A stretch of 64,000 nucleotides of DNA from Nitrospirota bacterium (GTDB lineage: Bacteria; Nitrospirota; UBA9217): NCBI GenBank assembly GCA_963749655.1, contig CAVVOB010000033.1, positions 1 through 64,000 on the forward strand, in the 5' to 3' direction. Below are positions 12,424 to 29,049 of the stretch, in pieces. The notes under the pieces were generated by a model. The model made no database searches. It was not told the DNA's origin and saw nothing but the letters and a program-made list of their open reading frames with translations. A program made the position numbers and the translations under genes. Position 1 is the first letter of the stretch; each line of letters opens with the position of its first letter.

Positions 12424-12726
12424 AGGTCTCCTTCTTGAACTGTAGTTCTCCATTGTAAGACTTATTGGCGGTAAAAGCTCTAGAATTATTGTCATGATGT
12501 CATCCCTGTGAAAACGACTTTCTCTCGGCCGCGGGAGGTGAGGTGCAGAGGGGCGGAATACGAGGCTGCCTGGCAGAGAACAGAACTGAATGCAGCAAAA
12601 GAGACCTGACCCTAAAGGTCCTGGAACAAGCTGAAAGTTGGCCGCTAACGCTGACAGCTTTTTTTGTTAAAGACCTTATCCTATGATGTTCTCTTGCACT
12701 TCCTGTAAAATACATCTAGAATAGTC

Positions 12727-19294: not shown

Positions 19295-19390
19295 GAGCTG
19301 GGGAGAGACGCTGCTCAGCTGTTGTCGAGCGTCTGATACGCAGGAGGTTGTGGTTGTTCATCAGGCAATGCGTAACGCACATGCGGATTG
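19295..19390 (-). pseudogene. Relic of RAYT HUH-motif region directly next to the intron insertion site
   Basis: HCLMNNHNLLRI resembles RAYT (Y/F)CLMxNHxHLL. Confidence 0.5.
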
Positions 19391-19392
19391 AG

Positions 19393-21307
19393 GTAGAGTA
19401 GAGAGCTGGTCGTATTGACCAGCCCTCCCTCATCAAACCGTGCATGCAGTTTTCCCGCACACGGCTTTCCGATGTTCTTCACCGCAAGGCATGCGCCTTC
19501 AACCAGCCCGCTGTCGTCGGCACTTTATAGAGCCCATACTTCTCGTACAAAGACCTGTTGGTGAACCTGCGTAAACCCCGCTGCCCTGCTTTTGATCTTA
19601 TGCCGCTTACGCAGATGCGTGCGCACTCGCGCTTCCACATGGAACTTGAGACGATCGAAGCGCCTTGCTGCTGTTGCGATAATGAAAATAGCCGACCCAG
19701 CCCCGAAGGGCGGTGTTGACTTCTTCTATTATCACGCTAAGCGGCTTCGGCGTCATCCGTCTGTGTGTTAAGGCGGTGACGCTGTCTTTGATCTTCTTCA
19801 GGGCCTTTCGTGATGGCTGTACCAGTGGGTAGAGGTTGCCCGTTCTCCGACTTCTTCCCATACGAAGTTCAAATCCAAGGAAGTTGAAGCCTTCTTTCTT
19901 GGCGTTCACTATGCGGGTCTTGTTCTCATTGAGCACAAGTCCCAGTCGTTCGAGCACCCGGCGCACTACCGCCATCGGCTGCTCGGTTCCCTTTCTGCAC
20001 AGCACGACAAAATCATCGGCATACCGTACAAGACGCGCTCCGAGTCTACTCTGGAGCTTCTTCTTGTGCCATATCCTATCTAACAGGTGCAGATAGAGGT
20101 TGGCCAGGAGCGGTGAAATGACCCCGCCTTGCGGTGTGCCTTTGGTGTTTGCCTTGCCGCCGCCGATGTTCCGCTTCGTTCCGTCCTTGTCCACTTCCAT
20201 GACCGGGGCCTTGAGCCACATCTGGATGATGTGCAGAATCGCACTATCAACGATGCGCTCGGCGACCACGGCCATGAGCTTGGCATGGGGGATGGTGTCG
20301 AAGTACTTTGAAACATCGGCGTCGATGACTTCCGTATAACCGCAGTTGAGGGCATACGATATGTCTTCGATTGCATCATGGGCCGACTTCTTGGGTCTGA
20401 ATCCGTATGAGGTGTCTATGAAGTCTGCTTCAAAGATCGGTTCGATGACCAGTTTGACGGCCATCTGGGCCACCCTGTCCCTAATGGTCGGGATACCGAG
20501 GGGACGCTCTGTGCCGTCTCCTTTGGGTATCATGACGCGCTTTACAGGGTTTGGTGCGTAGGTCTTGCTCTTCAGTGCTTCTTGCAGCTCCGCCAGAAAG
20601 GCGATTACCCCTTCTCCGGTCTCTATGGCCTCGAAGGTGACGCCGTCGATGCCGGCGCTCCCTTTGTTGGCCCTGACAAGATGGTAGGCGTGACTGAGGA
20701 TGTCGGCCCGGTGTATCTTGTCGTAGAGCGCGTAGAAGCGGTAGGCCGGTTCTTGCTTGGCCTTACGGTAGAGCTTCCTCTGGAGTGTCCTGATTGTCTC
20801 AGGGGTTGTTAGCATCTCTGCAATCCCCTCATCCTCTCTCCTTCGGTTGCGTGAACAAAGCAGGGTCCCTTTTCTCGGACAGGGTTATGTTGTCCCATGT
20901 CCTCAAACGATACTATGGACCCCTCCGACTCCCGATACAGCCCAATGCGTTTTCGTTTCCTTATACGCACCGGTTGATGTTCCTCTAACATCACTGTATC
21001 GGGTCTCCAGCACTGGACTGCTTATCTTCCGCTGCATGCCGCCCCTGCTACCCCGGGAGATCGCACAGATCGCTTCCGTTGTCTGAATCTGTGCGCATCG
21101 GCCTTCCCCATTTGACCACAGGGTCGGCATCTCCGAATAAGTTACGAGGCTACGTGTAGGTTCGCTTTCGCTGCGGCCTGTAGCTTTGCCGTTTGGGAAC
21201 TCACGACCTCTGATTGCTCAGACGCCGCTCCCTCGTGCTACCAAGGCGTACGGACAACTCCTTGGGCGGGACTTGAACCCGCAAGATAATCAGTTGTTAC
21301 TGCGAAC
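19393..21307 (-). mobile_element. Complete group II intron (~1915 nt)
   Basis: 5' GTTCG; domain V AAGCCGTGTGCGGGAAAACTGCATGCACGGTTT; domain VI GCTGGTC..GACCAGC..CTACTCTAC 3' end; encodes RT/maturase. Confidence 0.9.
19479..20815 (-). CDS. ltrA: Group II intron reverse transcriptase/maturase, no En domain (frameshift near 19655)
   Basis: NKGSAGIDG, RPLGIPTIRDR, GTPQGGVISPLLAN, RYADD, FNFLG, LRGWVGYF. Confidence 0.93.
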
Positions 21308-21352
21308 GGTCAGGTCTTGCGGTTTGACAGGCAGCGCTTTCACTGACTTTCA

Positions 21353-22521: not shown

Positions 22522-22988
22522 CGACCGCACAGGGTCAGGTCTTTTATTTTGGTGTTGAAGAACATGTGTTTAGTTCAAGCGGCACACCACTTCAGGCCAG
22601 GTCCTTTTTTAAAGTTCTTCTCCGATGCCCCCGTAGACCTCTTACGATCAGATAGTGTCCCTGTTATTTTCTCGCCAGGTTTGTATCCAGATTTGCAAGC
22701 ACCTGCCTGCTAGCGGCCTTTGCCAGATCGATGAGCTTGGGGTGAAGCGCCTTGCGACCGCACAGGGTCAGGTCTTTTATTTTGGTGTTGAAGAACATGT
22801 GTTTAGTTCAAGCGGCACACCACTTCAGGCCAGCGTCCTTTTTTAAAGTTCTTCTCCGATGCCCCCGTAGACCTCTTACGATCAGATAGTGTCCCTGTTA
22901 TTTTCTCGCCAGGTTTGTATCCAGATTTGCAAGCACCTGCCTGCTAGCGGCCTTTGCCAGATCGATGAGCTTGGGGTGAAGCGCCTTG
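22522..22988. repeat. Tandem duplication, 233/234 bp units (22522-22754, 22755-22988)
   Basis: Near-identical units differing by small indels; includes REP-like site and 3' end of adjacent gene. Confidence 0.9.
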
Positions 22989-28776: not shown

Positions 28777-28852
28777 TGGTGGTCCCAACGGGAATCGAAC
28801 CCGTGTCTCCGGCGTGAGAGGCCAGCGTCCTAGGCCGCTAGACGATGGGACC
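28777..28852 (-). tRNA. tRNA-Glu(CTC)
   Basis: GGTCCCATCGTCTAGCGGCCTAGGAC..CT-CTC-AC..GGTTCGATTCC..GGACCACCA. Confidence 0.95.
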
Positions 28853-28975: not shown

Positions 28976-29049
28976 TGGTTGGGAGAGGAGGATTCGAACC
29001 CCCGTAGACAGGTTCAGAGCCTGTCGTCCTACCACTGGACGATCCCCCA
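28976..29049 (-). tRNA. tRNA-Gln(CTG)
   Basis: TGGGGGATCGTCCAGTGGTAGGAC..CT-CTG-AA..GGTTCGAATCC..CCAACCA. Confidence 0.95.

What the first reader, a model, noticed from the sequence alone, without database searches (positions are those of the whole stretch)
19380..21330. Group II intron inserted precisely into the REP-like GACCTGACC|CT site
Seen: removing the intron (19393-21307, minus) rejoins GCAAGACCTGACC|CTCAAT, the same AGACCTGACCCT found empty at 12602-12613 and 22531/22764. A domain-I stem-loop at 21101-21128 exposes GGTCAA, complementary to the 5' exon TGACC (candidate EBS1/IBS1). The RT has no endonuclease domain. Known: En-less introns use ssDNA targets, and IIC-attC introns home into integron attC hairpins. 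Inference: this intron lineage is specialised on RAYT-associated REP sites, a parallel to attC-homing introns.
Basis: partly seen in the sequence, partly recalled or inferred. Interest (0 to 1): 0.8.

Follow-up and report, generated by a model that had tools for sequence, protein, structure and literature searches.

The report
Group II intron in REP-like repeat
A mobile self-splicing intron sits exactly inside a short repeat that elsewhere forms the ends of RAYT transposase units, and its relatives in other bacteria often sit in such repeats too, which points to a target habit not yet described for introns of this type.

Summary
Window 19393-21307 (minus strand) is a 1,915-nt group II intron. 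Its ends are fixed by two Rfam matches and by 67 homologous 5' junctions. Removing it restores GACCTGACC|CT, the motif that stands empty at 12602, 22531 and 22764. The domain-I loop GGUCAA (21112-21117) is the true EBS1: across 61 homologues it changes together with the last five exon bases in five fully complementary combinations. The encoded protein has reverse-transcriptase and maturase domains and no endonuclease domain. In this copy two extra bases break the maturase frame.

The motif is the outer end of the ~25-nt inverted repeats that bound three RAYT (REP-associated tyrosine transposase) genes on contig C23. About ten further copies stand alone. Relatives lie within about 60 nt of a RAYT gene at six loci, on either side. 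Of 29 TGACC-type sites in other genomes, 19 score as REP-like. Other members of the clade use unrelated sites, hairpins are uncommon (7 of 47), and a second pairing (EBS2) appears at some sites. This is therefore a sequence-guided preference of sub-lineages, not hairpin recognition as in IIC introns. The intron class is unresolved, and nothing here tests mobility.

The parts
19393..21307 (-). Group II intron, 1,915 nt, starting GUUCGC and ending CUCUAC
   Evidence: Rfam RF02005 and RF00029. The 5' and 3' ends are conserved in homologues. Environmental contigs cover only this span.
21308..21331 (-). 5' exon part of the REP-like motif (CCTGTCAAACCGCAAGACCTGACC). The last five bases, 21308-21312 (TGACC), are IBS1.
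   Evidence: Scored with a matrix built from six RAYT flanks (positions -24 to -6 only), it ranks 13th of 1,798 TGACCC sites in the genome. A near-identical empty copy lies on contig C4.
19391..19392 (-). First two bases of the 3' exon (CT), which complete the motif. C at +1 is the candidate IBS3.
   Evidence: The 3' exon starts with C in 51 of 54 homologous full-length copies. The partner base EBS3 was not located.
21101..21128 (-). Domain I hairpin carrying EBS1. EBS1 itself is GGUCAA at 21112-21117.
   Evidence: Covariation with the exon: 43 of 61 pairs are 5/5 Watson-Crick, against a permutation mean of 18.2 and maximum of 29 in 2,000.
21129..21144 (-). Internal loop just 5' of the EBS1 hairpin, a candidate EBS2. 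It is not matched by this site's exon.
   Evidence: The loop matches exon positions -17 to -6 over 5 or more bases in 11 of 62 homologues (permutation mean 4.3, maximum 10 in 1,000). The best match at the window's site is 3 bases. Weak evidence.
21041..21275 (-). Ribozyme domains I-IV, Rfam type group-II-D1D4-6
   Evidence: The same family is hit in each of the four relatives' loci scanned: L031 (both copies), L049, L055 and L077.
19479..20815 (-). Gene for the intron-encoded protein (RT plus maturase, no endonuclease). It is open only over 19607-20815 (402 aa). Single extra bases at 19660 and 19570 shift the frame within the maturase domain.
   Evidence: Environmental contigs of relatives lack both extra bases (table 4).
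19393..19469 (-). Domains V and VI. The candidate branch-point A is at 19399, 7 nt from the 3' splice site.
   Evidence: RF00029, 54.2 bits. The position of the A is read from the alignment and and is inferred.
12602..12613 (+). Empty copy of the motif (AGACCTGACC|CT)
22531..22542 (-). Empty copy of the motif, first unit of a 234-bp tandem duplication
22764..22775 (-). Empty copy of the motif, second unit of the tandem duplication

Best explanation
Window 19393-21307 (minus strand) is a bacterial group II intron retroelement whose protein lacks an endonuclease domain. Its ribozyme is of Rfam type D1D4-6 and uses exon pairing of the IIB/IIC style.

It entered by reverse splicing between GACCTGACC and CT of a short REP-like repeat. 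That repeat is the outer end of the ~25-nt terminal inverted repeats of RAYT units in this genome, and it also occurs as about ten solitary copies.

At this site recognition rests on 5 bp between EBS1 (GGUCAA) and the exon end TGACC, probably plus the C at +1. The candidate second pairing (EBS2) is not satisfied. The exon base at -6 is C, where the loop would pair with T. This looks like a spread from the better-matching repeat variant ...GATTTGACC, found in sister genomes, to a related repeat.

In sub-lineages of this clade EBS1 is tuned to the terminal pentamer of such repeats (TGACC, and TGTCC or TGTTC beside two RAYT genes), which gives the intron many harmless intergenic homes.

The window's copy lies between two genes of the same orientation, so it could be transcribed by read-through. 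Its maturase frame is broken, so it is probably a decaying or non-autonomous copy.

Shown: boundaries, motif, RAYT association, EBS1 covariation, absence of an endonuclease domain, the frame breaks. Inferred: reverse splicing as the mode of entry, the reason for the repeat preference, present inactivity.
For: - Intron identity and ends.
- The protein is RVT_1 plus GIIM only. The intact relative scores 396.8 bits on TIGR04416 (cut-off 300).
- EBS1: 43 of 61 intron/exon pairs are 5/5 Watson-Crick and 53 of 61 with G-U allowed. Five fully complementary combinations occur: TGACC/GGUCA, TGTCC/GGACA, CGTCC/GGACG, GCTAC/GUAGC and TGGCC/GGCCA. Permuted pairings give a mean of 18.2 and a maximum of 29 in 2,000.
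- The base just 5' of EBS1 is U while exon +1 is C in 51 of 54 copies, so this is not the IIA delta pairing.
- RAYT link in this genome: three C23 genes score 86-92 bits on NF047646 (cut-off 80). Each is flanked by inverted copies of the motif. Homology between two RAYT copies begins and ends at the motif.
- The site ranks 13th of 1,798 TGACCC sites on a matrix that excludes IBS1.
- The only other intron piece in the genome (C27:47959-48199) follows ...TCTGACC|CC and lies 25 nt from another motif copy.
- Other genomes: 19 of 29 TGACC-type sites reach the 95th percentile of the background and 11 of 29 the 99th. For other site types the figures are 7 of 36 and 1 of 36.
- A Y1 transposase homologue is present in 12 of 110 loci. 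It lies within about 60 nt of the junction in six (L004, L006, L029 downstream of the gene; L046, L065, L095 upstream on the other strand), with different truncation points or hosts.
- The sister repeat GAAGATTTGACC occurs 14 times in G022 against 0 for the control pattern, partly as inverted pairs.
- No terminator-like site lies next to the insertion point.
Against: - The motif family is small (about 17 copies in 4.27 Mb) and single copies are not clear palindromes, so 'REP' is used loosely.
- 37 of 67 junctions do not end in TGACC, and many of those sites are not REP-like.
- In G065 none of the six full copies lies beside a RAYT gene. One of those copies sits in the terminator after a tRNA gene.
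- The scoring matrix favours A-rich sequence. The background is mostly coding DNA, so part of the enrichment may reflect intergenic composition. The contrast with the non-TGACC intron sites only partly controls for this.
- Conserved bases upstream of IBS1 could in principle be read by the intron or its protein rather than reflect repeat identity.
- Splicing and mobility were not observed. The runs laid do not contain this organism's flanks.
- The two frame breaks could be assembly errors in a metagenome-derived genome of 86.6% completeness and 5.8% contamination.
Confidence: 0.75

Rival explanations
1. There is no preference for the repeat as such. The intron needs only about 5 bp of IBS1 plus C at +1 and survives best in intergenic DNA. 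The repeats merely supply many such sites, and the RAYT neighbours are a by-product.
For: - Sites within one genome share little beyond (T)GACC|C.
- Most sites lack an EBS2 match (51 of 62).
- A related multi-copy lineage (L049, L050, L053, L054) uses AT-rich sites that are not REP-like.
- No RAYT gene lies beside the six copies in G065.
Against: - The genome has 1,798 TGACCC sites, yet the one full copy lies in a motif member and the one fragment lies 25 nt from another.
- 11 of 29 foreign TGACC-type sites exceed the 99th percentile on positions outside IBS1.
- Six junctions lie within about 60 nt of a RAYT gene. These genes number only 4 to 11 matches per genome in the four relatives searched and 9 in the window's genome.
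Confidence: 0.18
2. It behaves like a IIC or IIC-attC intron. The DNA hairpin formed by the palindromic repeat is the main signal, with only a short pairing.
For: - Some sites lie at the end of the 3' arm of long perfect palindromes: L034, L037, L055, L085 and L010. L135 and L137 lie at the end of imperfect ones, read by eye.
- 7 of 47 sites have such a repeat, against a shuffle mean of 1.2 and a maximum of 5 in 200.
- The nearest solved RTs are IIC enzymes, at 177-180 bits.
Against: - 40 of 47 sites, including the window's, have no such hairpin.
- EBS1 pairing is 5-6 bp with covariation.
- A candidate EBS2 exists.
- The insertion point lies inside the arm, not after the stem.
- No terminator is adjacent.
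- RTs at 47-50% identity belong to introns of another Rfam type, whereas IIC RTs score only slightly better than the CL and ML enzymes.
Confidence: 0.04
3. The association arises the other way round. RAYT or repeat activity moves or duplicates DNA that already carries intron pieces, or the repeats insert beside introns.
For: - Many copies are 5'-truncated fragments lying beside the repeats.
- Short tandem duplications surround several of them.
Against: - Junctions are exact at the intron's own 5' and 3' ends, and EBS1 matches the exon.
- The fragments beside RAYT genes are truncated at different points, 1531 and 1597.
- Full-length copies interrupt otherwise intact motifs.
Confidence: 0.03

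Closest known systems
Class C (IIC) group II introns that insert after intrinsic terminators
   Same: The protein lacks an endonuclease domain. Targets are intergenic, specificity is relaxed, and a subset of sites lies at DNA palindromes. Descriptions come from passages of PMC4424553, PMC7306698 and PMC12584367.
   Different: Pairing here is 5-6 bp and covaries. The insertion point lies inside a repeat, not downstream of a terminator stem. A candidate EBS2 exists. Class membership of the protein was not shown.
IIC-attC introns in integron attC sites
   Same: An intron lineage tied to the recombination or repeat sites of another mobile system that works on single-stranded DNA (passages of PMC7923331).
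   Different: attC recognition relies on a bulged hairpin with a TTGT/T pairing. Here the partner is a RAYT terminal repeat and a hairpin is mostly absent. No integron was sought.
Insertion sequences that target REP sequences, and the Pseudomonas putida KT2440 group II intron
   Same: A table in Tobes and Pareja 2006 (PMC1525189) lists IS elements with 100% association to REPs and a group II intron with 2 of 9 copies at REPs. REPs as landing sites, and an intron at REPs, are therefore on record.
   Different: That record is a count in one genome, without mechanism or lineage analysis. Here the pairing loop covaries with the repeat end across many genomes, and copies lie in the repeats that bound RAYT genes.
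Introns without an endonuclease that home into insertion sequences (RmInt1 type, class D)
   Same: The strategy is the same: an intron without an endonuclease lives in multicopy mobile DNA (recalled; only the search listings of PMC4615759 and PMC5894124 were seen).
   Different: RmInt1 uses a long, specific homing site. Most sites here match only EBS1 and +1.
Class F sensu lato (groups g1-g4) introns without an endonuclease
   Same: The host range overlaps (Geobacter, Solibacter, Pelobacter and betaproteobacterial relatives). An intron on Nitrobacter hamburgensis X14 plasmid 1 has an RT 49% identical over 95% of the length. Class lists come from passages of PMC3552965.
   Different: That Nitrobacter intron and two others at 47-50% identity hit Rfam D1D4-4, not D1D4-6. 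It is not verified that the plasmid copy is the database intron. No reference tree was built.

Membership tests
Group II intron (bacterial retroelement form) | Conserved domain V and domain VI with a bulged A near the 3' end | tested here: met
   RF00029 scores 54.2 bits (cut-off 40) at 19393-19469. An A lies at 19399, 7 nt from the end (the bulge is read from the alignment).
Group II intron (bacterial retroelement form) | Domain I-IV ribozyme structure | tested here: met
   RF02005 scores 69.0 bits (cut-off 49), matching model positions 1-225 of 225.
Group II intron (bacterial retroelement form) | 5' end GUGYG (consensus as quoted in PMC7923331) | tested here: inconclusive
   The intron starts GUUCG, and the clade has GU[A/U]CG. 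Position 3 departs from the consensus throughout the lineage.
Group II intron (bacterial retroelement form) | RT/maturase protein encoded in domain IV | tested here: met
   RVT_1 scores 134.7 bits and GIIM 33.8 bits in the window's copy. The intact relative scores 396.8 bits on TIGR04416 (cut-off 300). The window's frame is broken.
Group II intron (bacterial retroelement form) | EBS1-IBS1 pairing with the 5' exon | tested here: met
   Covariation in 61 pairs.
Group II intron (bacterial retroelement form) | Splicing and mobility | not testable with these tools
   The runs found do not hold this organism's flanks.
Class C (IIC) introns | Short IBS1 of 3-4 bp and no EBS2 | tested here: not met
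   5/5 pairs in 43 of 61 and 6/6 in 22 of 61. A candidate EBS2 matches in 11 of 62 (weak).
Class C (IIC) introns | Stem-loop (terminator or attC) directly upstream of the insertion point | tested here: not met
   None at the window's site. 7 of 47 among relatives. No terminator-like site is adjacent.
Class C (IIC) introns | Protein falls within the class C clade | not tested
   Only solved structures were compared: IIC RTs 177-180 bits, T.el4h 145, LtrA 137. No reference tree was available.
REP / RAYT system | RAYT gene (Y1 HUH transposase of the REP-associated type) | tested here: met
   Three C23 genes score 86.4, 90.1 and 91.8 bits on NF047646 (cut-off 80) and hit Pfam Y1_Tnp. None lies in the window.
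REP / RAYT system | RAYT flanked by repeats in inverted orientation | tested here: met
   Motif copies point outward on both sides of each of the three genes. Homology between two RAYT copies ends at the motif.
REP / RAYT system | Repeat is itself palindromic and present in many extragenic copies | tested here: inconclusive
   About 17 copies in 4.27 Mb. Single copies show no clear hairpin (read by eye). Inverted pairs occur in relatives.

The most novel reading that the evidence does not exclude
The intron clade may exploit RAYT chemistry as well as the repeat sequence. A nick or single-stranded state made at the repeat end could provide the primer that a protein without an endonuclease lacks.

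The hint is a duplication of the 11 nt that follow the insertion point. It flanks 5'-truncated copies in three genomes (L004, L006, own C27) and stands in tandem at one empty repeat (L135). This is the pattern expected if reverse transcription starts from a bottom-strand 3' end 11 nt downstream and an aborted cDNA is joined back.
Probability: 0.1. Interest if true: 0.85.

Novelty: new variant of a known kind. Interest (0 to 1): 0.6.

Why it matters
A 2015 review names three target habits for bacterial group II introns: long homing sites, terminator motifs and attC sites. It assigns the last two to class C only (passage of PMC4424553).

A widespread clade of another RNA type that tunes a 5-6 bp guide to the ends of RAYT-associated repeats would add a fourth habit. 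It would link two selfish systems that both depend on single-stranded DNA. It would also give a simple natural test bed for how much specificity EBS1 alone can provide.

The window's own copy is an ordinary, probably decaying insertion with no evident effect on the neighbouring genes.

Tried and rejected
- Class assignment failed.
  - The Rfam D1D4 family numbers could not be mapped to classes.
  - Simon et al. 2008 is not held.
  - Passages of Toro and Martinez-Abarca 2013 give class lists but no signatures.
  - Plasmid hits at 47-50% identity turned out to be a different Rfam type.
- A IIC-style hairpin was sought and found at only 7 of 47 sites.
- EBS2 was sought by complementarity anywhere in domain I and then at one loop. 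The signal is real but weak and is absent at the window's site.
- EBS3 was not located.
- Sequencing runs:
  - No run held more than 0.30 of the sampled words.
  - The four runs laid hold relatives of the intron but not this locus.
  - Nothing can therefore be said on splicing, on an empty allele, or on whether the two extra bases are assembly errors.
  - RNA contigs over the intron do not prove transcription.
- The duplication of the 3' exon was checked in all 8 truncated copies that have both flanks. It was present in 3, so it is reported as unexplained, not as a rule.
- Repetitiveness of the site variants:
  - It was clear in G022, with 14 matches against 0 for the control pattern.
  - It was slight in G065, with 8 matches against 3.
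- One of the 67 regex junctions (L041, position 5406) has no EBS1 hairpin and is probably spurious. Two copies (L042, L048) were dropped from the 3' exon count because the end pattern matched too early.
- Literature searches found no paper describing a group II intron lineage tied to REP or RAYT sites, apart from the count in PMC1525189. The library lacks most subscription journals.
Full report
WHAT IS THERE

On the minus strand of the window, Rfam finds domains I-IV of a group II intron (RF02005, 69.0 bits, cut-off 49) at 21041-21275. It finds domains V/VI (RF00029, 54.2 bits, cut-off 40) at 19393-19469. Between them lies an open frame, 19607-20815, with Pfam RVT_1 and GIIM and no nuclease domain.

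The 3' end at 19393 is the last position of the Rfam model. The 5' end at 21307 follows from homologues. In 67 distinct junctions collected from relatives the intron begins GT[A/T]CGCAGTAAC. One of those 67 is probably a spurious pattern match.

Contigs from four environmental runs cover 19393-21307 and fall to zero in the flanks. One contig shows two introns in tandem, separated by a C, 34 other bases and TGACC. The flanks read ...CAAGACCTGACC | CTCAAT....

THE MOTIF

AGACCTGACCCT stands without mismatch at 12602, 22531 and 22764. With up to one mismatch the window has 5 matches against 0.11 expected by shuffling. The two copies near 22.6 kb belong to a 234-bp tandem duplication.

The whole genome has 39 contigs and 4.27 Mb. 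It holds about 17 members of a family with the consensus TGTCAA, then about 8 bases, then AAGACCTGACCCT.

Six members flank three genes on contig C23, pointing outward on both sides. These genes score 86-92 bits on NCBIfam 'REP-associated tyrosine transposase' (cut-off 80) and hit Pfam Y1_Tnp. An alignment of two of these gene copies shows that homology starts and stops at the motif. The motif is therefore the end of a terminal inverted repeat of about 25 nt.

The other members are solitary. One, on contig C4, matches the intron's own 5' exon over 24-26 nt with no homology beyond. Single copies are not obvious palindromes, so 'REP-like' is the fair term.

TARGET RECOGNITION

The hairpin at 21101-21128 shows GGUCAA in its loop. 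The hairpin could be located in 61 homologous introns. Its first five loop bases pair perfectly with the last five exon bases in 43 of them, and in 53 when G-U pairs are allowed. Five fully complementary combinations occur. Permuting introns against exons gives a mean of 18.2 and at most 29 perfect pairs in 2,000 trials. This settles EBS1/IBS1.

The 3' exon starts with C in 51 of 54 full-length copies. The base next to EBS1 is U, so the pairing is of the IIB/IIC kind, not the IIA kind. The partner base was not found.

An internal loop just upstream of the hairpin matches exon positions -17 to -6 over 5 or more bases in 11 of 62 cases. Permutation gives a mean of 4.3 and a maximum of 10 in 1,000. 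That suggests an EBS2 used at some sites.

The window's site does not match this loop. It also pairs only 5 of the 6 EBS1 bases. The repeat variant ...GATTTGACC of sister genomes pairs all 6.

IS THE LINEAGE TIED TO THESE REPEATS?

Within the genome:
- There are 1,798 TGACCC sites.
- On a matrix built only from the six RAYT flanks, and only from positions -24 to -6, the intron's site ranks 13th. Ten of the twelve sites above it are family members.
- The only other intron piece is a 243-nt 3' fragment on C27. It follows ...TCTGACC|CC and lies 25 nt from another family member.

Across genomes:
- 22 of 61 related genomes hold matches, many of them 5'-truncated. A protein-guided scan returned 80 further loci, with 65-97% RT identity. 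The nearest are Nitrospirota genomes assembled from metagenomes.
- Of 29 foreign sites ending in TGACC, 19 reach the 95th percentile of the background and 11 the 99th. Among 36 sites of other types the figures are 7 and 1.
- A Y1 transposase homologue lies in 12 of 110 loci. In six it is within about 60 nt of the junction. Three are just downstream of the gene's stop and three are upstream of its start on the other strand, as expected for inverted terminal copies.
- RAYT-type matches number only 4 to 11 per genome in the four relatives searched and 9 in the window's genome.

Against a strict specialisation:
- 37 of 67 junctions end in other pentamers.
- One multi-copy relative uses AT-rich sites that are not REP-like.
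- One near-identical copy sits in a tRNA terminator.
- None of the six copies in G065 is next to a RAYT gene.
- The matrix favours A-rich sequence, so composition may inflate the figures.

NOT A HAIRPIN READER

Only 7 of 47 reconstituted sites have a perfect inverted repeat of 7 or more bases ending at the site. Shuffles give a mean of 1.2 and a maximum of 5 in 200. The window's site has none.

No terminator-like site is adjacent. Where palindromes exist, the intron sits inside the 3' arm, two or so bases from its end. This differs from the description of IIC and IIC-attC introns in the passages read.

CLASS

Among solved structures, IIC reverse transcriptases score highest (177-180 bits). T.el4h (145 bits) and LtrA (137 bits) are not far behind.

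The best plasmid-borne relatives are 47-50% identical, among them an intron on Nitrobacter hamburgensis X14 plasmid 1. Three of these were scanned, and their ribozymes hit Rfam D1D4-4. The four clade loci scanned (L031, L049, L055, L077) all hit D1D4-6. Toro and Martinez-Abarca list Nitrobacter hamburgensis introns under class F (passages). I could not verify that the plasmid copy is one of them. The class therefore stays open.

STATE OF THIS COPY

Compared with a copy whose RT is 97% identical and whose frame is an intact 444 aa, the window has single extra bases at 19660 and 19570. They shift the frame within the maturase domain. Contigs of relatives lack both bases.

It is the only full copy in an 86.6%-complete genome. 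It lies between two minus-strand genes, in their orientation. It is probably non-autonomous, unless the breaks are assembly errors.

UNEXPLAINED

In 3 of 8 truncated copies with both flanks, the 11 nt that follow the insertion point stand on both sides of the fragment. Similar tandem copies follow some full copies and one empty repeat. This would fit priming from a bottom-strand end 11 nt downstream. The protein has no endonuclease, and nothing here tests the idea.

PRIOR KNOWLEDGE AND VERDICT

Seven full-text searches found no description of an intron lineage tied to REP or RAYT sites. The exception is a table entry of 2 of 9 intron copies at REPs in Pseudomonas putida KT2440.

This is a new variant of a known kind, and the bolder mechanism remains open.

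Noticed in passing
L004, L006, L024 (own genome C27:47959-48199), L107, L008, L135: The 10-13 nt that follow the insertion point are duplicated. The 11-nt form flanks 3 of 8 truncated intron copies that have both flanks. Tandem copies also follow some full copies and stand at one empty repeat. L004 has five copies upstream of the fragment.
   Followed up: partly
window 19480-20846 (joint in an RNA contig of run X15): An environmental metatranscriptome contig joins 20846 to 19480 and so skips 1,365 nt, almost exactly the protein gene. This points to ORF-less derivatives of this intron family. Run X16 has loose ends at the same places.
   Followed up: no
window 22522-22988: A 234-bp unit is repeated twice at 99% identity, upstream of a small secreted-protein-like gene. 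Each unit carries an empty copy of the motif.
   Followed up: partly
G065:C6:242808-273706 (loci L031-L033, L126, L128, L130): A related Nitrospirota genome holds six full copies, all on the plus strand of their contigs. Three lie within 6 kb of each other, and two of those are only 214 nt apart.
   Followed up: partly
L111 2587-4449 and 4668-6530 (G000:C23): Two ORFs of the same length (620 aa) lie in tandem next to the RAYT genes. Their identity was not compared, and neither was examined further.
   Followed up: no
G000:C28:139707-140036: A longer RAYT-like gene (about 310 aa, of the same type as one on C13) carries an in-frame TAG. The flanks of this second RAYT type were not analysed. A homologue of this type lies just upstream of an intron in L029.
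   Followed up: no
window 28780-28852 and 28979-29049: Two tRNA genes on the minus strand (Rfam 62 and 63 bits), unrelated to the finding.
   Followed up: no
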